The position numbers were made by a program, and so were the translations under genes. A stretch of DNA of 44,007 bases, from sequence record PX907401.1, one strand, 5' to 3'. The stretch is from a phage. The notes under the pieces were generated by a model that did not search any database, was not told where the DNA came from, and worked only from the letters and a program-made list of their open reading frames with translations. Positions within the stretch are counted from its first letter, which is position 1. Every line of letters begins with the position of its first letter. Shown here one piece after another: positions 2,925-15,852 of this stretch.

Positions 2925-3251
2925 TTATTTCGCAAGCTGGGCGAATAGTTCGCGCTGGGCTTTAATCCGGGCGACGTTTGTCACTGCCGTCTCGCCGATA
3001 CCGAAGCGATACGCCAGGCGCTCACGGGCAAATGCGAGCGCGTAGTCCTGGATAGCGTTTGCGAGTGGCTGGATCTCCGCCATCGTGTCGAATCGGTCCT
3101 CCAGCATACAGGCGATGGCCTGCTGCGTGACGCGGACAACGGACCACGCTGCCGATAGTCTTTCGACCGCTTCCGCTCCTTCACTGGCGAACTCCGCCGC
3201 TTCTTGCGCCGCCGCCATAGCCATTGCGTAATTCCAGATTAATGCTCTCAT
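2925..3251 (-). CDS. Hypothetical alpha-helical protein (108 aa), first gene of the minus-strand operon
   Basis: ATG at 3251 with GAGGA upstream; promoter-like element just upstream. Confidence 0.55.
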   Translation of the reverse strand: MRALIWNYAMAMAAAQEAAEFASEGAEAVERLSAAWSVVRVTQQAIACMLEDRFDTMAEIQPLANAIQDYALAFARERLAYRFGIGETAVTNVARIKAQRELFAQLAK

Positions 3252-3279
3252 CGTTCAGTCCTCATGTTGGTGTGCGACC

Positions 3280-3308
3280 AATATAGCCGGGTGCTGGGCT
3301 GAATGCAA
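3280..3308 (-). promoter_or_regulatory. Sigma70-like promoter on the minus strand (-35 TTGCAT, 17-bp spacer, -10 TATATT) carrying the ATTGGTTGCAT motif
   Basis: Minus-strand reading ATTGGTTGCATtcagcccagcacccggcTATATT; about 25 nt upstream of the ATG at 3251. Confidence 0.5.
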
Positions 3309-3449
3309 CCAATATTAATCACGCGCATGAAAAAGTTGATCGCTATCAGCTGTGACTGCATTTTTCACTACGCATAATGCATTGGTTGCCGAGTTCATCC
3401 GCGACCGCACTTCGCATCATGCTGCCGTGTATTTTGCGATCCACGGATT

Positions 3450-3623
3450 TTATTCAGTCTCAGACGAGGGGGGCCGTTGACCCCCGTCTAGTCTGAAAGA
3501 CTGGGGTTTGTCCCGCCTGTCCCGCTCCTCTGGAAGCCGCGCCATCCGGGGCGGGACGGGGGTGCTGTCCCGCTTTGTCCCGCCCCTTGTTTGTCCCGCT
3601 TTCTGTCCCGCTTACTTTATGCA
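3450..3623. repeat. Dispersed repeat element, copy A (about 174 bp; second copy at 31279-31452)
   Basis: Near-identical 5' 75 bp and 3' 48 bp shared with copy B; contains six direct TGTCCCGC heptamers plus one inverted, and hairpin-capable segments. Confidence 0.85.
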
Positions 3624-9410: not shown

Positions 9411-9500
9411 CCGCTTAGGCGCAACCAAGTAGATTATCAACCAAGCCGGACGGGGTGGCTCACAATAACCCCGATACATGTGAAAATGAGGAATTGGAAA

Positions 9501-10223
9501 ATGACTAAAGTCAACCTGAAAAATGTGCGCGTATGTTTCCTGAAAATTTGGGAACGTGATACCCCTAAACAGGATGGACAAAAACCGGCATACCGCGCCG
9601 TGATTCTTCTTGATAAAGAAGATCCGCAGGTGGACAAAGTGGAAGCGGCAGCACGCGCAGTGCTCACCGACAAGCTGAAATCCGAGAAGAATGCCGATAA
9701 GTGGATGGACCGCCACTACGCCCAGGATTCTAAGGAATGTGCAGTTCGCGACGGCGACGAGCGCGACGAAGTGACCGAAGAATTCGAAGGCATGTTGTAC
9801 ATCAACGCCAAGTCGTTCAAACAGCCTATCATTCAAACGTCACTCGGCGAGAAGCAGACTGAACAGGGTCTGACCATCGACGGCGACGAGATTGAAGGCC
9901 AGGAGATCTACTCCGGTTGTTATTGCAACGTGTCCCTTGATATTTGGGCGTGGAACAATACCAACGGCAAGGGTCTCGGGGCGGGCTTGCTGGGCCTGCG
10001 ATTCCGTGAAGACGGCGAAGCCTTCGGCGGTGGCGGGTCTTCTTGCTCCGATGAAGACCTGGACAACGACGACGAAGACGAAGCACCGCGCAAGGCTAAG
10101 AAGTCAAAACGTCGTGATGACGATGAGGAAGATGAGAAACCTCGCAAACGTCGTAAGCCACGCGATGACGAAGATGAGGACGACGACGAAGACGAAGCAC
10201 CACGTAAACGTCGCCGCCGTTAA
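9501..10223 (+). CDS. Putative ssDNA-binding protein (DUF2815-like) with repetitive mixed-charge C-terminal tail
   Basis: GAGGA 8 nt upstream of the ATG at 9501 (ORF frame opens at GTG 9480); N-terminus MTKVNLKNVRVCF...; tail DEDEAPRKAKKSKRRDDDEEDEKPRKRRKPRDDEDEDDDEDEAPRKRRRR; sits between exonuclease and polymerase. Confidence 0.6.
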   Translation: MTKVNLKNVRVCFLKIWERDTPKQDGQKPAYRAVILLDKEDPQVDKVEAAARAVLTDKLKSEKNADKWMDRHYAQDSKECAVRDGDERDEVTEEFEGMLYINAKSFKQPIIQTSLGEKQTEQGLTIDGDEIEGQEIYSGCYCNVSLDIWAWNNTNGKGLGAGLLGLRFREDGEAFGGGGSSCSDEDLDNDDEDEAPRKAKKSKRRDDDEEDEKPRKRRKPRDDEDEDDDEDEAPRKRRRR

Positions 10224-10281: not shown

Positions 10282-10452
10282 ATGCGTATTAAAGCCAGCG
10301 AAGTAAAAGTCGGAATGCAAGTATGGTCCAAGCTACTGGGGGAATATTTCACAGTTGCCGAGATTCGCAACAACGGCGAAGAAATCGCCCTGTCCGACGG
10401 CATCTTCTCCATGATCGGCAGCAATGACGCCGTAGTGAGGATAAAGCAATGA
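10282..10452 (+). CDS. Small hypothetical protein (56 aa), translationally coupled to the polymerase (ATGA overlap)
   Basis: MRIKASEVKVGMQVWSKLLGEYFTVAEIRNNGEEIALSDGIFSMIGSNDAVVRIKQ; its stop overlaps the polymerase ATG at 10449. Confidence 0.5.
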   Translation: MRIKASEVKVGMQVWSKLLGEYFTVAEIRNNGEEIALSDGIFSMIGSNDAVVRIKQ

Positions 10453-13400
10453 AAGACTTCGAACGCCTGTTTCTCGACACCGAGACATTTAGCGGGGTGG
10501 ACCTGAAGAAAGTTGGGGCGTACGCCTACGCAGAGCACCCAACCACCGAGATTATGATTTGCACATACGCCATCGACGAGGGCCGCGTGCAGACATGGGA
10601 TTGCACTGAATCCCCCACAATGCCGCGTGAACTGCGCAAAGCGATCCGCCATGTATCCCGCAAGAAAGCAAAAATCGTGATGGCTAACGGCCTCCTGTTT
10701 GACCGCCTGGTTATTCGCGAGAAGTGGGGTATTGACCTGCCGGTAAGCCAGATCGAAGACACCATGATTATGGCCTTTCGCCACGCGCTGCCGGGTAGCC
10801 TCGATATGCAGTGCCAGGTGCTGGGCGTTGACGCAGAGCACGCGAAGGATAAGGCAGGCAAGGCGCTGATTAAACGATTCTGTAAGCCTACCCCTAAGAC
10901 CTACAAAATACGCCGCTACACTCGCGAGACTCACCCGGAAGAATGGGCCAAATTTCTGCGCTATGCCGCGCTGGATATTATCGCAATGCGTGAAGTCTAC
11001 TGGCGCATACCGGACTGGGGTAATACTCCGAAGGAAGATGAAATCCTACTTATCGACCAGTTGATCAACGACCGCGGCTTCTATGTGGACGTTGACCTGG
11101 CGAACGCCGCGATCAAAGCGGTGCAGGCGCATAAGGAAGAATTGAAGGAAGAAGCCTGGGAGCGATTTGGCGGTAAGCTGACCGGCAATGACTTCCTGCC
11201 AATCCTGCGTGATATCGCCCCGGCGTTCACGATCCACAACGCGCAGAAATCCACACTTAACGACCTACTGGAAGACCCGGACTTCCCGGACGAGGGCAAA
11301 GCGCTTATCGAAATGCGCCTCGGTGCGTCATCAACGGCATCTACTAAATACAATCCGCTTGTCAATGGCCTGTCCGCCGATGGTCGCCGCCGTGGTTGTC
11401 TTCAGTATGGTGGGGCAAAGCGCACGCTACGCTGGGCCGGTAAAGGCTTTCAACCTCAAAACCTGGCGCGTGGCGAGTACAGCGACGACCACGAAGGGAA
11501 GATTAAACGCCGCGAGGGTGAAAGCGACGTCTCGTTTTGGGTCCGGTCGCACATGCTCACCAACGGCATCAACTCCCTGTTACGCGGGACCGCACACTGG
11601 GCGTATGACATATCGAAGCTAACGGCCTCGACCGTTCGCGGGTGCATTATTCCGGCGAAGGGCAAGAAGTTTGTCGTAGCGGACTACTCCAACGTGGAAG
11701 GGCGTGGACTTGCCTGGATCGCTGGCGAGAAAACAGCGTTAATGGTCTTTAAGGCCGGTCGCGATATCTATTGCGAGACTGCCGGTAAGATGTTCGGCCT
11801 GGACCCGGACTACATTAAAGCCAACCGCAAGGACTTACGCCAGATCGGTAAGGCTTGCTTGCACCGCCATACCCAAGTATTGACCAATGGCGGGTTCAAG
11901 GATATTATGGCCGTAACATCAACGGATAAAGTATGGAACGGCGAAAAATGGGTGAGTACAAAAGGCGCGCACCTTATGGGGTGGAAACCAGTGATAGACG
12001 TGGACGGGGTCTTGATGACAGAAGACCACAAAATCTTGACGCATTCATGGAAGGAGGCAAGGCAACTCGTTTCAGACAGGTGCACGATGGCCCGCGCCCT
12101 GGCGAGAGGTATGGACGCCTGGTTATCCTGCGCGAATTACCAAAACGACAGGGGCACAGACAACTGCTGGCTCAATGTGATTGCGGAGCGATGCCAGGAC
12201 GCGTCGGGTATGACAACGTCCGAAGGGGTAAAACATCCCAATGCAACCTCTGCGCAATTGAAGCGACAAAGCGGTATCGTAAACAGTATTTTTGCTACGA
12301 TGACGCAATGCCAGACGATGCGCACAGAACGCGGCTGCTCAACCGGCTGTCCGCGGCAATATCACGAACGACAAACCCCCGCGCCAAAGGGTATAAAAAC
12401 TATGGCGGTCGTGGGATTGCCGTATGTGACGAATGGAAAAGAGATAAAAGGTCGTTTCTTCGCTACGTTCAAACGCTGGACGGCTGGGATAATCCAGACT
12501 TCGAAATGGACCGGGTCGATACAGACGGCAACTATGAGCCTGGAAACCTTCGGTTTGTCAGCCGTTCGGAAAACTGCCGTAACCGGCGCAGCGTGCCCGA
12601 GCTTCAGCGAAAGTGCGATGAAGCCCTTACCCGCATTGCTGAACTGGAACGGGAAGTTAACCTATTGCGAGCCGGTTTACGACCTGATTGATGTGGAAGA
12701 CGGAAACCGGTTCCTTATTGCGTCTAAGTCTGGTTTTCTGGTGGCGCATAACTGCGAGCTAGGCTTGGGCTATGGTGGCGGCGTGGCAGCGTTCTTGCAG
12801 TTCGCTAAAAACCTGGGCCTCGACCTGTACACTATGGCGGACGTGATGAAAGGCACGTTCCCGGATCACATTTGGGCGGCGGCGAAACGCGGCTATGAGT
12901 ACGCCCGCATTAACGAAGCGAAACGCCCACCGAAGCCTGGCAAGAAGGACGAGCGACCGACTTACATACTGCCGAAAAACGTATGGCTGACGTGCGACGC
13001 GATCAAACGTATGTGGCGAGAGGCCCACCCGAAGACGGTTGCCTTTTGGGCCGAGCTTGAGGACGCGGTGTTGTGTGCAATCCGCAATCCGGGCAAAGCA
13101 TACTGGGCTGGCGCGAACGTTCGCCCGGATGGCAAGAAAGCGCTCAAGATTGTTCGCACGAAGGCGAAGCACGACCCAACCTTCGACGAGGAGCGCGACG
13201 ACCCGGACGCTGCGGGGTGGTGGTTGAAAATTGAGTTGCCGTCGGGGCGCATCATGAGCTACCCCGGCATCGCGCTGTCTGTCACGACAGAGATTGACGA
13301 GGACACCGGCAAGAAGCGCACCAGCACACGCATTAAATATCAGGGCGAGAATCAGACGACGCGCCAGTGGGGGTTCCAGTACACCTACGGCGGCAAACTG

Positions 13401-13637
13401 ACGGAGAACATCGTACAGGCGTTGTGCCGTGATATTCTCGCATGGTCCATGCCGGGCGTCGAAGCCGCGGGGTATGAAATAGTCCTGTCAGTACACGATG
13501 AACTGATCACCGAAGTGCCCGACACAGACGACTACACGACAGAGGAGCTTTGCGCGCTGATGTGCGACCTGCCTGTTTGGGCGAAAGGCTTCCCACTTGC
13601 CGCCGAAGGTGATTGTATGTATCGCTACCGCAAGTAG
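10449..13637 (+). CDS. Family-A (Pol I-like) DNA polymerase with 3'-5' exonuclease domain, interrupted in motif B by an intein
   Basis: 1062-codon uninterrupted ORF; Exo I LFLDTETFS; motif A VVADYSNVEGRG; motif B RQIGKA / CELGLGYGG split by a 299-codon insert; motif C VHDE. Confidence 0.9.
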   Translation: MKDFERLFLDTETFSGVDLKKVGAYAYAEHPTTEIMICTYAIDEGRVQTWDCTESPTMPRELRKAIRHVSRKKAKIVMANGLLFDRLVIREKWGIDLPVSQIEDTMIMAFRHALPGSLDMQCQVLGVDAEHAKDKAGKALIKRFCKPTPKTYKIRRYTRETHPEEWAKFLRYAALDIIAMREVYWRIPDWGNTPKEDEILLIDQLINDRGFYVDVDLANAAIKAVQAHKEELKEEAWERFGGKLTGNDFLPILRDIAPAFTIHNAQKSTLNDLLEDPDFPDEGKALIEMRLGASSTASTKYNPLVNGLSADGRRRGCLQYGGAKRTLRWAGKGFQPQNLARGEYSDDHEGKIKRREGESDVSFWVRSHMLTNGINSLLRGTAHWAYDISKLTASTVRGCIIPAKGKKFVVADYSNVEGRGLAWIAGEKTALMVFKAGRDIYCETAGKMFGLDPDYIKANRKDLRQIGKACLHRHTQVLTNGGFKDIMAVTSTDKVWNGEKWVSTKGAHLMGWKPVIDVDGVLMTEDHKILTHSWKEARQLVSDRCTMARALARGMDAWLSCANYQNDRGTDNCWLNVIAERCQDASGMTTSEGVKHPNATSAQLKRQSGIVNSIFATMTQCQTMRTERGCSTGCPRQYHERQTPAPKGIKTMAVVGLPYVTNGKEIKGRFFATFKRWTAGIIQTSKWTGSIQTATMSLETFGLSAVRKTAVTGAACPSFSESAMKPLPALLNWNGKLTYCEPVYDLIDVEDGNRFLIASKSGFLVAHNCELGLGYGGGVAAFLQFAKNLGLDLYTMADVMKGTFPDHIWAAAKRGYEYARINEAKRPPKPGKKDERPTYILPKNVWLTCDAIKRMWREAHPKTVAFWAELEDAVLCAIRNPGKAYWAGANVRPDGKKALKIVRTKAKHDPTFDEERDDPDAAGWWLKIELPSGRIMSYPGIALSVTTEIDEDTGKKRTSTRIKYQGENQTTRQWGFQYTYGGKLTENIVQALCRDILAWSMPGVEAAGYEIVLSVHDELITEVPDTDDYTTEELCALMCDLPVWAKGFPLAAEGDCMYRYRK
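11856..12752 (+). other. Intein (protein-splicing element) within DNA polymerase motif B
   Basis: Starts with Cys (CLHRHTQVLTNGGFKDI), TxxH-like block (EDHKILTHSW), ends VYDLIDVEDGNRFLIASKSGFLVAHN followed by +1 Cys; flanks reconstitute the RxxxKxxxFGxxYG motif. Confidence 0.75.
11933..12691 (+). CDS. HNH-type (HNH_3/AP2-like) homing-endonuclease-like ORF in the -1 frame, entirely inside the intein
   Basis: 252-codon ORF; GERYGRLVIL...CDCG...QCNLC (Zn-ribbon-like) and GYKNYGGRGIAVCDEW...DRVDTDGNYEPGNLRFVSRSENCRNRR; the overlapping polymerase frame is also open throughout. Confidence 0.55.
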   Translation: MERRKMGEYKRRAPYGVETSDRRGRGLDDRRPQNLDAFMEGGKATRFRQVHDGPRPGERYGRLVILRELPKRQGHRQLLAQCDCGAMPGRVGYDNVRRGKTSQCNLCAIEATKRYRKQYFCYDDAMPDDAHRTRLLNRLSAAISRTTNPRAKGYKNYGGRGIAVCDEWKRDKRSFLRYVQTLDGWDNPDFEMDRVDTDGNYEPGNLRFVSRSENCRNRRSVPELQRKCDEALTRIAELEREVNLLRAGLRPD

Positions 13638-14198: not shown

Positions 14199-14423
14199 AT
14201 GACGATGAAAGAACATTACCGACTCACCAAGCTGGGCGAATGTAAACCGGGCGATCGCGTATGGTTTATCGCGGGCATGAATGATCCGCTGCCGTTGACG
14301 GTGTGCTGGCAAAAATTTAAGAGCTTCCGGGCTACCGGTGTGCACATCGGACACGCCACCAACTACGACGCTACAAAAAGGAACTGGAACAGTGAAACCG
14401 AAGTCTGGAAAAAGGCGGAATAA
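14199..14423 (+). CDS. Hypothetical protein (about 74 aa)
   Basis: ORF with GGGAGA upstream; start could be ATG 14199 or 14205. Confidence 0.5.
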   Translation: MTMKEHYRLTKLGECKPGDRVWFIAGMNDPLPLTVCWQKFKSFRATGVHIGHATNYDATKRNWNSETEVWKKAE

Positions 14424-14427
14424 AGAA

Positions 14428-15852
14428 ATGGCACGATTCCGACGCCGCGAATATCAGAAGTTGATAACCGCGTTCATCCTCAAGCATAAGCGATGCAATA
14501 TATGGGCGACAATGGGGTCGGGTAAAACCGGCGCGACCATGTGGGCGCTGAATAAAATGTTCCAGACCGGCATCCTGTCCAACCAGGAGGACCGCGTACT
14601 GGTGCTAGCCCCGCTGCGCGTTGCGTCCGGTACATGGCCCCCGGAACAGGAGAAATGGCGCTTCCCAGCCTTGCTGGTGGTAGACGGCACTGGGTCAGAG
14701 AAGGACCGCATCGCGGCGCTTGAGAGCGACGCTAACGTGGTTTGTGTTAACTACGATGTGGTTGAGTGGCTGGTCGACTATTACGGCGATGCGTGGCCCT
14801 TTACGGTCGTTGTTGCCGATGAATCCACTAAGCTGAAAGGCTATCGTAGCAAGCAGGGGAGCAAGCGCGCCCGCGCACTGGCAGCGATTGCACATAAACA
14901 CGTCAAGCGCTGGATTAACCTGACCGGCACACCAGCGCCAAACGGGCTGAAAGACTTATGGGGCCAGACGTGGTTTGTCGACGGTGGCGAACGACTCGGC
15001 AGTAGCTATAAGGCATTTACCGACCGCTGGTTCATTAGCAAGCCTGTTAAGCCTGGCAGCTTCACTATGCAGCACGCTCCGCTAAAGAACTCCGAGAAAG
15101 AAATACAACAACGCCTGTCTGACGTATCACTAACCGTTGACGCGGCTGAATACTTCGGGTGCGACAAGCCAATCTATACGCCGGTTGTTGTGGATCTACC
15201 GAAGAAAGCCCGCAAGATTTACGACCAGTTTGAAAGCGAGCTATTTGCCGAACTGGAAAGCGGAACAGTGGAAGCGGCTAACGCTGCGTCGAAGACCATC
15301 AAGTGCCTTCAGCTTGCTTCCGGCGCTGTGTATAAGGTGGACGAAGACGGCGAACGGACCGACGAGTGGGTGAAGATTCACGACGCCAAACTGGACGCGC
15401 TGGAAAGTATCGTGGAGGAGTTGAACGGCGCGCCGTTGCTCGTTGCGTATCAGTATAAGCATGACCTGGCACGTCTTAAGAAGAAATTTCCGCACGGCGT
15501 CGCGTTGGGTAAGGGTAAGCAGGGCAATAAGGATATGGAAGCGTGGAACAGGGGCGAGATCCCCATCATGTTTGCACACCCGGCATCGGCAGGCCACGGC
15601 CTTAACTTGCAGGACGGCGGACATCACCTGGCAATCTTCTCCGATACCTGGAACTTTGAGCATTTTTCGCAGATCGTTGAACGTATCGGGCCGGTTCGCC
15701 AGATGCAGGCCGGACACCCTCGACCGGTATTCGTCTACATTATCCAGGCGCGCGGGACACTGGACGAATTGGTCGCCGAGCGTCGCGACAGTAAGCGAGA
15801 TATACAGGACGACTTGATGGAATACATGAAAGCTAAAAAGGCGCGCAAATGA
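14428..15852 (+). CDS. SNF2-like superfamily-2 helicase/ATPase
   Basis: ATG 14428 (MARFRRREYQKL); Walker A MGSGKTGA; DExx VVADESTKLK; NLTGTPAPNGLKDLW (SNF2-type motif III). Confidence 0.8.
   Translation: MARFRRREYQKLITAFILKHKRCNIWATMGSGKTGATMWALNKMFQTGILSNQEDRVLVLAPLRVASGTWPPEQEKWRFPALLVVDGTGSEKDRIAALESDANVVCVNYDVVEWLVDYYGDAWPFTVVVADESTKLKGYRSKQGSKRARALAAIAHKHVKRWINLTGTPAPNGLKDLWGQTWFVDGGERLGSSYKAFTDRWFISKPVKPGSFTMQHAPLKNSEKEIQQRLSDVSLTVDAAEYFGCDKPIYTPVVVDLPKKARKIYDQFESELFAELESGTVEAANAASKTIKCLQLASGAVYKVDEDGERTDEWVKIHDAKLDALESIVEELNGAPLLVAYQYKHDLARLKKKFPHGVALGKGKQGNKDMEAWNRGEIPIMFAHPASAGHGLNLQDGGHHLAIFSDTWNFEHFSQIVERIGPVRQMQAGHPRPVFVYIIQARGTLDELVAERRDSKRDIQDDLMEYMKAKKARK

What the first reader, a model, noticed from the sequence alone, without database searches (positions are those of the whole stretch)
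11856..12752. Intein splitting motif B of the family-A DNA polymerase
The polymerase ORF is continuous for 1062 codons, but its motif B (RxxxKxxxFGxxYG) reads RQIGKA, then a 299-codon insert, then CELGLGYGG. The insert begins with Cys (CLHRHTQVLTNGGFKDI), has a TxxH block (EDHKILTHSW) and ends VYDLIDVEDGNRFLIASKSGFLVAHN followed by Cys. These are the hallmarks of a protein-splicing intein at a known active-site hotspot. The central ~160 residues of the insert in the polymerase frame look like an unstructured linker, not a LAGLIDADG or HNH domain.
Basis: partly seen in the sequence, partly recalled or inferred. Interest (0 to 1): 0.8.

Follow-up and report, generated by a model that had tools for sequence, protein, structure and literature searches.

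The report
Polymerase intein hiding an out-of-frame endonuclease
The phage DNA polymerase gene does carry a protein-splicing intein in its active-site motif B. The intein's apparently meaningless middle is a second gene, read one base out of step, for a homing-endonuclease-like protein, so one stretch of DNA serves two proteins.

Summary
The polymerase ORF (10449..13637) is continuous, and 11856..12752 is an exact 897-bp insert in motif B (RQIGKA|C...HN|CELGLGYGG) that most close relatives lack.

The intein reading is supported:
- It has Cys1, TxxH, and terminal His-Asn followed by Cys.
- Both ends evolve under strong purifying selection in the polymerase frame.

The -1 frame holds a 247-codon ORF (11948..12691) for an HNH-annotated, zinc-ribbon endonuclease-like protein (phrog_374 E 4.5e-47; AF2 pLDDT 88; dN/dS 0.14). 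The polymerase frame over the same DNA evolves neutrally (dN/dS 0.9) yet has no stop codon (P about 0.001 per lineage).

The same layout recurs in three clades whose endonucleases are only about 41-56% identical. The only sigma-70-like match in the window (11880..11908) sits at the same intein position in most intein-bearing loci.

The intein alone is already annotated in GenBank; Sodalis phage SO-1 calls it a group I intron, which the evidence rejects. Inteins with out-of-frame endonucleases were described in a 2025 preprint, with a different nuclease family. This is therefore a new variant of a recently described kind.

The parts
10449..13637 (+). Family-A DNA polymerase precursor ORF (1062 codons plus stop), continuous through the insert
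   Evidence: Pfam DNA_pol_A; phrog_17 and phrog_7766, DNA polymerase.
10449..11855 (+). N-extein, ending in motif B ...RQIGKA
   Evidence: Aligns without gaps to the intein-less polymerases of phages welsh and UDS3lw.
11856..12752 (+). Intein, 299 codons: Cys1 ... His298-Asn299, followed by Cys+1
   Evidence: Exact 897-bp presence/absence polymorphism. The same boundaries are annotated as an intein in phage vB_SenS-Ent3.
11856..12074 (+). N-terminal splicing region: residues 1-73, block A (CLxxxTxVLT), block B (T55-x-x-H58) and SWKEAxQL
12075..12659 (+). Polymerase-frame 'linker' (residues 74-268): translated and excised with the intein, with no amino-acid constraint except the absence of stop codons
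   Evidence: AF2 pLDDT is below 50. Polymerase-frame dN/dS is 0.89. Pairwise identity between clades is 22-35%. There are 0 stops against 3-7 expected.
12660..12752 (+). C-terminal splicing region: residues 269-299, blocks F and G (VYDL...RF.I...G.L..HN)
   Evidence: AF2 gives pLDDT 80-86. Polymerase-frame dN/dS is 0.04. V274, Y275, D276, R285, F286, H298 and N299 are invariant.
11948..12691 (+). Overprinted ORF in the -1 frame, 247 codons plus TGA: an HNH-annotated homing-endonuclease-like protein. Its N-terminal ~50 residues overlap the intein's N-terminal splicing region and the start of the linker
   Evidence: phrog_374 'HNH endonuclease' E 4.5e-47. 1734 homologues. AF2 mean pLDDT 87.7. 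HNH-frame dN/dS is 0.14. The ATG at 11948 is the only start conserved in 9 divergent lineages.
12176..12253 (+). Zinc-ribbon (CxC...CxxC; C77, C79, C99, C102 of the ORF), probably the DNA-binding module
   Evidence: The four Cys are invariant in 120 homologues. The Pfam CapR homology domain matches 27 of 120 relatives. CapR is described as a Zn-finger DNA-binding domain of phage homing endonucleases (PMC10448857).
12500..12583 (+). Predicted beta-beta-alpha nuclease-like motif FEMDRVD...PGNLRFVSRSENCRN (D188, R189, N200, N209 invariant)
   Evidence: AF2 gives strands at 185-189 and 201-205 and a helix at 206-212. Weak hits to other HNH PHROGs cover residues 190-219.
11880..11908 (+). Sigma-70-like promoter candidate inside the intein's block A codons: TTGACC, 17 nt, TATTAT. 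It lies 40 nt upstream of the endonuclease ATG
   Evidence: It is the only TTGAC-N18-TATNNT match in the 44-kb window, where 0.23 are expected. It sits at the same intein position in most intein-bearing loci of all three clades. The Leu9 codon is TTG in 11 of 12 lineages, against 13% TTG among extein Leu codons. The third base of codon 16 is always T although the amino acid varies.
12753..13637 (+). C-extein, starting CELGLGYGG (rest of motif B), through motif C to the stop

Best explanation
The insert is a composite selfish element: a class-1 intein whose internal loop was occupied by a once free-standing homing-endonuclease gene that was never fused in frame.

Ribosomes translating the polymerase mRNA read straight through the 897 bases. 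The two ends of the 299-residue insert fold together into a Hint domain and splice themselves out, together with a ~195-residue unstructured peptide. This rejoins ...RQIGKA to CELGLGYGG... and restores motif B (inferred from fold, motifs and selection; not shown experimentally).

The same DNA, read in the -1 frame from ATG 11948, makes a separate 247-residue protein. It has a zinc-ribbon DNA-binding module and an HNH-like beta-beta-alpha motif. It is probably expressed from its own weak promoter (11880..11908), which is embedded in the intein's block A codons (inferred from conservation).

In mixed infections this protein is expected to cut intein-less polymerase alleles near the motif B codons. 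Repair from the intein-bearing allele would then copy the whole element in (inferred from the patchy distribution and from the low divergence of the insert).

Selection acts on the polymerase frame at both ends, on the endonuclease frame in the middle, and on both in the ~130-base overlap. Across the middle, the only demand on the polymerase frame is that no stop codon arises.
For: - **Second gene.** PHROG HNH families match down to E 4.5e-47. There are 1734 homologues. AF2 mean pLDDT is 87.7, against below 50 for the same DNA read in the polymerase frame.
- **Frame switch of selection.** dN/dS, window versus Ent3: polymerase frame 0.03 / 0.19 / 0.89 / 0.04 along the N end, overlap, centre and C end; endonuclease frame 3.6 / 0.37 / 0.14 over the first three. 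Variable sites fall on polymerase codon position 3 at the ends and on endonuclease position 3 in the centre (chi-square p 1e-9).
- **Read-through is selected.** There are 0 polymerase-frame stops in every intein-embedded lineage examined. Random synonymous recoding of each endonuclease gives 3-7 stops, with P(0) between below 0.0002 and 0.017, about 0.001 for the window. A free-standing homologue has 19 stops in that frame.
- **Age and unity.** The same relative frame holds in 16 of the 17 IMG/VR loci (SS3e, with a 1-bp length difference, is the exception), in MR14 and in 4 metagenome contigs. These form three clades whose endonucleases are 41-56% identical. Splicing-domain and endonuclease identities co-vary (rho 0.59).
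- **Origin.** Relatives that are true mini-inteins carry only a ~15-residue loop where the endonuclease gene sits (P0007, P0009). Free-standing homologues lie next to polymerase genes.
- **Mobility.** Only 9 of about 150 Dhillonvirus records carry the insert. The insert is 98.4-98.9% identical among them, against 91-96% for the exteins. UDS3lw, which lacks the insert, has the closest N-extein (98.7%) but a 92% C-extein.
- **Promoter.**
Against: - No experiment is available here for splicing, for expression of the second protein, or for cleavage.
- Pfam and NCBIfam intein models do not match the window's insert.
- The endonuclease is called HNH only by PHROG and GenBank annotation. No Pfam HNH model matches it or its relatives, and neither a PDB sequence profile nor Foldseek finds a solved nuclease. 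The position of the canonical catalytic His carries an invariant Asp-Arg, so nuclease activity is uncertain.
- The Shine-Dalgarno sequence before ATG 11948 is weak.
- The promoter match is not significant in the window alone: 21 of 100 shuffles give at least one match.
- The low divergence of the insert could partly reflect dual-coding constraint rather than recent transfer.
- In Jersey-like phages the element appears nearly fixed, so active homing there is not demonstrated.
Confidence: 0.8

Rival explanations
1. [quoted passage not shown] The open polymerase frame would be incidental.
For: The SO-1 record says 'contains type I self-splicing intron' and annotates the -1 ORF as an HNH endonuclease. 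Phage polymerase genes are known hosts of group I introns with HNH genes (PMC3428280, listed).
Against: - No Rfam group I intron match, even at E up to 10.
- No placement of the boundaries gives both a 5' exon ending in U and an intron ending in G; the junctions are GGCT|TGC...AAC|TGC.
- The 744-bp endonuclease ORF leaves only 92 and 61 bases of the insert outside it, too little for a ribozyme core.
- The insert length is a multiple of 3 in every lineage (858-897 bp).
- The ends evolve as protein in the polymerase frame (dN/dS 0.03-0.04) and fold as a Hint domain.
- Stop codons are excluded from the polymerase frame.
Confidence: 0.03
2. The intein is real, but the -1 frame protein is not an active homing nuclease. 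It would be a DNA-binding relic or a domesticated factor, for example a regulator, kept for another reason, and the element now spreads only vertically or by ordinary recombination.
For: An invariant Asp-Arg stands where HNH enzymes have the catalytic His. There is no Pfam HNH match and no match to a solved nuclease. CapR-type zinc-finger domains of homing endonucleases have been domesticated as repressors (PMC8096241, listed, and PMC10448857). The element is near fixation in Jersey-like phages.
Against: - The beta-beta-alpha region is the best-conserved part of the protein (D188, R189, N200, N209 invariant in 120 sequences).
- The distribution in Dhillonviruses is patchy, and the insert is 4-6 times less diverged than its flanks.
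- Free-standing relatives sit beside polymerase genes, as homing endonucleases typically do.
- The protein is under purifying selection.
Confidence: 0.12
3. The endonuclease is made as a fusion, by a programmed -1 ribosomal frameshift from the polymerase frame, rather than from its own start codon.
For: The two frames run on the same strand and overlap. A 1-bp length difference in phage SS3e yields exactly such a fusion ORF, annotated as an HNH endonuclease (P0004).
Against: - No X_XXY_YYZ slippery heptamer is conserved in the overlap in any of 10 lineages.
- An in-frame ATG is conserved in all lineages, with a conserved promoter-like motif upstream.
- The Rfam frameshift-element hit is far below threshold (13 bits against 70).
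Confidence: 0.03
4. The two-frame layout is a sequencing or assembly artefact, and the endonuclease is really in frame with the intein.
For: One old record (SS3e) differs by a single base and changes frame.
Against: Identical frame relations appear in 163 full-length GenBank matches. They also appear in divergent lineages from independent metagenomes. Two compensating frame changes would be needed.
Confidence: 0.01

Closest known systems
Non-canonical inteins with a homing endonuclease in a separate reading frame (Gosselin, Arsenault and Gogarten, bioRxiv 10.1101/2025.01.02.630785)
   Same: A complete intein whose endonuclease gene lies between the splicing blocks but is not translated in the intein's frame. 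The host gene stays open. The proposed origin is also the same: a free-standing endonuclease gene invading an intein.
   Different: Their only same-strand out-of-frame case is an endonuclease VII-like gene in actinobacteriophages; their HNH cases are in frame. Here the nuclease is an HNH-annotated, CapR-type zinc-ribbon protein in phages of Enterobacteria and Pseudomonas. It is conserved in the same relative frame down to ~41-56% identity, with a candidate internal promoter.
'Intein-containing DNA polymerase precursor' of Jersey-like Salmonella phages, e.g. vB_SenS-Ent3 (GenBank annotation)
   Same: The same element at the same site, 83% identical in DNA, with the same 897-bp boundaries.
   Different: It is annotated as 'encoding splicing domains' only. 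The -1 frame endonuclease gene is not annotated.
Sodalis phage SO-1 gp38/gp39 (GenBank annotation)
   Same: The same element (98.9% identical); the -1 ORF is annotated as an HNH endonuclease.
   Different: It is interpreted as a group I intron, which the tests here do not support.
ShiLan insertion in actinophage DNA methylases (PMC11855218)
   Same: An out-of-frame HNH gene inside an insert that keeps the host frame open. In some lineages here (L021, L022) the endonuclease stop is the TAA formed by the last bases of the insert, as reported for ShiLan's TAAC.
   Different: ShiLan has no detectable splicing domains. Here a Hint domain is present and conserved.
Fractured genes with split inteins and a free-standing endonuclease gene between the halves (Dassa et al. 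2009, PMC2677866; listed)
   Same: A free-standing endonuclease gene lodged inside an intein-coding region.
   Different: There the host gene is broken into two ORFs and splicing is in trans. Here the ORF is continuous and splicing would be in cis.

Membership tests
Intein (class 1, Hint superfamily) | In-frame insertion in a conserved site of a host protein, absent from orthologues | tested here: met
   Exact 897-bp presence/absence at motif B, with gapless extein alignment to intein-less polymerases.
Intein (class 1, Hint superfamily) | Catalytic motifs: Cys/Ser1, block B TxxH, terminal His-Asn, and Cys/Ser/Thr at +1 | tested here: met
   C1, T55, H58, H298, N299 and Cys+1 are invariant across 8 lineages whose splicing ends are down to 42% identical to the window's.
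Intein (class 1, Hint superfamily) | Hint fold | tested here: met
Intein (class 1, Hint superfamily) | Match to curated sequence models (Pfam or NCBIfam intein/Hint) | tested here: inconclusive
   No hit for the window's insert. Pfam Vint matches 5 of 8 relatives (best E 8e-4). A PDB profile search hits the Neq polymerase intein at E 0.0015.
Intein (class 1, Hint superfamily) | Protein splicing activity | not testable with these tools
   Inferred from selection against stops and from an essential polymerase motif being interrupted.
Group I intron | Ribozyme core recognised by a covariance model | tested here: not met
   No Intron_gpI match at E up to 10 in 11500..13100.
Group I intron | 5' exon ends in U and the intron ends in G | tested here: not met
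   The junctions are GGCT|TGC...CATAAC|TGC. None of the four possible registers satisfies both rules (the rule is from established knowledge of group I introns).
HNH (His-Me finger) homing endonuclease | Sequence membership in HNH families | tested here: inconclusive
   PHROG families annotated as HNH match (phrog_374 E 4.5e-47; phrog_3377; phrog_2081). No Pfam HNH model matches the window ORF or its 119 relatives.
HNH (His-Me finger) homing endonuclease | Beta-beta-alpha-metal motif with catalytic His and Asn/His ligands | tested here: inconclusive
   A predicted beta-beta-alpha lies at residues 185-212, with invariant N200 and N209. Asp188-Arg189 stand where His is expected. No solved nuclease was found by Foldseek or by profile search.
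HNH (His-Me finger) homing endonuclease | Site-specific cleavage of the empty allele | not testable with these tools
   Only indirect evidence: the patchy distribution and the low divergence of the insert.
Non-canonical intein with out-of-frame endonuclease (2025 preprint) | Endonuclease ORF between the splicing blocks, on the same strand in a different frame, with the host frame open | tested here: met
Non-canonical intein with out-of-frame endonuclease (2025 preprint) | Endonuclease VII-like nuclease (IPR004211) | tested here: not met
   No Pfam Endonuclease_7 hit. There is only a weak PHROG endonuclease VII hit (E 0.0015).
Fractured gene / split intein | Host gene split into two ORFs | tested here: not met
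   A single 1062-codon ORF. The same holds in the other complete loci.

The most novel reading that the evidence does not exclude
The element may not be a transitional stage on the way to a fused intein-endonuclease. It may instead be an old, stable, three-layer overlapping code:
- intein splicing residues;
- an endonuclease gene overprinted in the -1 frame;
- a promoter written into the block A Leu-Thr codons.

On this reading it has co-diverged as one unit through several phage groups and two adjacent motif B sites. Fusing the endonuclease to the intein would then not be needed for long-term persistence of a mobile intein.
Probability: 0.45. Interest if true: 0.7.

Novelty: new variant of a known kind. 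Interest (0 to 1): 0.55.

Why it matters
- It settles a conflict in public annotation. The same element is called an intein without an endonuclease in some records and a group I intron with an HNH gene in another.
- It extends the recently described class of inteins with out-of-frame endonucleases to well-studied coliphage and Salmonella phage groups, where crosses and biochemistry are easy.
- It gives direct support to the 'splicing domain first, endonuclease invades later' view of intein origins. Mini-intein relatives, free-standing endonuclease relatives and the composite are all found.
- It suggests the unfused state can be stable for a long time.
- It warns annotators that 'endonuclease-less' inteins with long disordered linkers should be checked in the other frames.

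Tried and rejected
- **Sequence models for the intein.** Pfam and NCBIfam scans of the insert and of the -1 ORF found no Hint, intein or HNH family. phrog_93 'endonuclease' matches the polymerase-frame insert at E 1e-129, but it continues well into the C-extein (to polymerase residue 860). It probably reflects ORFs called from an internal Met in close relatives, so it is not evidence for a nuclease in that frame.
- **Homologue searches.** Searches with the polymerase-frame insert and with the mini-intein profile returned only 5 and 6 proteins. The AF2 alignment for the intein was therefore shallow (12 sequences), and only the ends are confident.
- **Placing the endonuclease among solved structures.** Foldseek of the endonuclease model against the PDB gave no hit below E 0.3. 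PDB profile searches with the whole protein hit only zinc-ribbon look-alikes such as Cox5b, and the nuclease-like domain hit nothing relevant. Pfam scans of neighbouring 'HNH' genes, intended as comparators, were uninformative.
- **RNA explanations.** Rfam gave only sub-threshold chance hits.
- **Frameshifting.** The slippery-site scan was negative.
- **Alternative start codons.** ATG 11933 is followed by a stop in Jersey-like phages and is absent in three lineages. ATG 12047 is Leu or Val elsewhere. Both were rejected.
- **Literature.** Searches found no paper describing this enterobacterial element as an intein with an out-of-frame endonuclease.
Full report
**Observation**

The window is a Dhillonvirus-like siphophage genome. 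Its polymerase gene is about 96% identical to those of Sodalis phage SO-1 and Shigella phage EP23.

- The ORF 10449..13637 is 1062 codons long and matches family-A DNA polymerase models on both sides of the insert.
- About 150 Dhillonvirus records match this gene at 90% identity or more, and only 9 of them cover it in full. The listed records without the insert match as two pieces covering 71-72% of the query, i.e. minus 897 bp.
- The window's exteins align without gaps to the two intein-less polymerases that were fetched, phages welsh and UDS3lw. Their motif B reads ...GKA|CELGLG... uninterrupted.

The ORF list shows a 252-codon ORF (11933..12691) wholly inside the insert, in the -1 frame relative to the polymerase.

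- It matches PHROG families annotated as HNH endonuclease (phrog_374 E 4.5e-47, plus phrog_3377 and phrog_2081).
- It has 1734 database homologues.
- Free-standing relatives occur in many phages, some directly beside polymerase genes.

Public records disagree about this element. SO-1 annotates 'type I self-splicing intron' plus HNH gp39. Pubbukkers and many Jersey-like Salmonella phages annotate 'intein-containing DNA polymerase'. vB_SenS-Ent3 annotates the same 897 bp as an intein 'encoding splicing domains', with no endonuclease.

**Intein or intron?**

- Rfam finds no group I intron, even at E up to 10.
- No register of the junctions (GGCT|TGC...AAC|TGC) gives both a U-ending exon and a G-ending intron.
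- Curated intein sequence models do not match the window's insert. A profile of the two ends from eight lineages hits the Nanoarchaeum polymerase split intein (E 0.0015), a Vint Hint domain and the Spl DnaX mini-intein in the PDB. Pfam Vint matches 5 of 8 relatives.
- AF2 models residues 1-62 and 269-299 confidently (pLDDT 80-94) and residues 63-268 not at all.
- C1, T55, H58, H298 and N299 are invariant in eight lineages whose splicing ends are down to 42% identical to the window's.

The insert is an intein.

**Two frames, two selective regimes**

Comparing the window with the Jersey-like copy (83% DNA identity, no indels) gives these dN/dS values:

| Insert segment | Polymerase frame | Endonuclease frame |
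|---|---|---|
| First 90 bases | 0.03 | 3.6 |
| Overlap, bases 93-225 | 0.19 | 0.37 |
| Centre, bases 225-801 | 0.89 | 0.14 |
| Last 60 bases | 0.04 | not computable (no synonymous differences) |

Variable sites tell the same story. At the ends, 31 of 39 lie on polymerase codon position 3. In the centre, 88 of 151 lie on endonuclease position 3 (p 1e-9).

AF2 of the -1 frame protein, with a 120-sequence alignment, gives mean pLDDT 87.7. The same DNA read in the polymerase frame gives pLDDT around 30.

**The polymerase frame is kept open on purpose**

- Randomly recoding each endonuclease with synonymous codons, at the local codon usage, puts 3-7 stops in the polymerase frame. A stop-free result occurs in 0-1.7% of trials, about 0.1% for the window.
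- Every intein-embedded lineage examined has zero stops.
- A free-standing homologue has 19 stops in that frame.

Read-through in the polymerase frame is therefore required. An intein needs this; an intron does not.

**Depth of the arrangement**

The same layout, with the endonuclease always -1 relative to the polymerase, is found in:

- Pseudomonas phage MR14;
- 16 of the 17 IMG/VR loci. The exception is SS3e (L019), which differs in length by one base and is discussed under side observations;
- four metagenome contigs.

These form three clades. Between clades the endonuclease cores are 41-56% identical and the splicing domains 41-51% identical. The two measures co-vary (rho 0.59), while the polymerase-frame linker is at background.

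Of the 120 best endonuclease homologues, 100 begin MG or MP. Four contigs of those two types were inspected (three MG, one MP) and all four are intein-embedded. The one homologue of another type that was inspected is free-standing.

Relatives of the splicing domain exist as true mini-inteins with a ~15-residue loop at the point where the endonuclease gene sits here. They are inserted elsewhere in polymerase genes (P0007, P0009, P0011). This fits invasion of a mini-intein by a free-standing endonuclease gene.

**Expression of the second gene (inferred)**

- The only start codon conserved in all lineages is ATG 11948. It is formed by the (Lys/Glu/Ser)-Trp codon pair of the intein (xxA TGG). The upstream ATG 11933 and the downstream ATG 12047 are not conserved.
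- No slippery heptamer is conserved, which argues against frameshifting.
- The single TTGAC-N18-TATNNT match in the whole window (0.23 expected) lies at 11880..11908, 40 nt upstream of that ATG. It sits at the same intein position in most intein-bearing loci of all three clades.
- Its -35 box is written in the invariant Leu9-Thr10 codons. Leu9 is TTG in 11 of 12 lineages, although TTG is only 13% of extein Leu codons and the neighbouring Val and Thr codons vary freely. The T that opens the -10 box is the third base of a codon whose amino acid varies among D, R, A, P and S.

I read this as an internal promoter, but it is untested.

**Mobility (inferred)**

- Among Dhillonviruses the insert differs by 1.1-1.6%, while the flanking exteins differ by 4-9%.
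- The closest N-extein (98.7%) belongs to a phage without the insert, and identity drops to 92% right after the insertion point.
- In the Dhillonviruses compared, intein-bearing and intein-less alleles differ by a cluster of synonymous changes at the junction.

These features are typical of homing with co-conversion, but dual-coding constraint could also lower the insert's divergence.

Whether the protein is an active nuclease is uncertain:

- The beta-beta-alpha region is its most conserved part.
- An invariant Asp-Arg replaces the canonical His.
- No Pfam HNH model or solved nuclease matches it.
- Its zinc ribbon resembles the CapR-type DNA-binding module of phage homing endonucleases (PMC10448857).

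**Comparison with the literature**

[quoted passage not shown] They list HNH only as in-frame.
- The ShiLan insertion is an out-of-frame HNH gene without splicing domains (PMC11855218).
- I found no paper describing the enterobacterial polymerase element in this way.

**Verdict**

The intein is real but already annotated in public records. Its overprinted endonuclease gene is the interesting part. It is a new variant of a kind first described in 2025, here with strong evolutionary evidence and in experimentally tractable phages.

Noticed in passing
L023:2810-3667, L025:65-931, L029:57-923, and L030 (intein N-terminus cut off by the contig end): In one clade the same intein-plus-endonuclease composite sits four codons further downstream in motif B (GKxxELA|C...HN|CGF(A/Q)G instead of GKx|C...HN|CELGLG). 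The element has apparently moved between two adjacent sites.
   Followed up: partly
L019 (Salmonella phage SS3e) and protein P0004: A single-base length difference in this record joins the intein's N-terminal part to the endonuclease frame. It gives a 268-residue ORF annotated 'HNH endonuclease' and breaks the polymerase frame. This is either a sequencing error or a natural example of how one indel could fuse the two.
   Followed up: partly
Proteins P0007, P0009 and P0011: Related splicing domains exist as mini-inteins without any endonuclease gene. They are inserted before the QAxxRD...VHDE region of polymerase genes. P0011 appears to carry two inteins of this family at further sites.
   Followed up: no
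L025, L026, L029, L030: All four metagenome contigs that carry the element end within about 65 nt upstream of the intein or inside it. This may be an assembly break caused by coexisting intein-bearing and intein-less alleles.
   Followed up: no
L021 and L022: In these lineages the endonuclease ORF runs to the very end of the insert. Its TAA stop starts at base 876 of the 879-base insert, so it is formed by the last bases of the intein's terminal His and Asn codons. The same 'TAAC' ending is reported for the ShiLan insertion.
   Followed up: partly
L001:4756-5358 compared with window ~13640: SO-1 has an extra gene annotated 'putative HNH endonuclease' (gp37) just downstream of the polymerase. 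It is absent from Pubbukkers, welsh and, judging from the ORF list alone, from the window. This would be a second variable nuclease slot beside the polymerase.
   Followed up: no
window 9480..10223: The ORF upstream of the polymerase corresponds in position to the gene annotated Gp2.5-like ssDNA-binding protein in SO-1. It ends in a long alternating acidic/basic tail (DDEDE...PRKRRK repeats). The gene's length varies among relatives (609-786 bp).
   Followed up: no
L006:4275-4756 (vB_SenS-Ent3): The Jersey-like phage also has an annotated LAGLIDADG intein in its helicase gene. The window's helicase ORF (14338..15852, 504 codons) was not examined for one.
   Followed up: no
L005:~2990-3495 (Salmonella phage SAP012): A free-standing homologue of the endonuclease starts inside the 3' end of the polymerase gene and is not annotated in the record.
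   Followed up: partly
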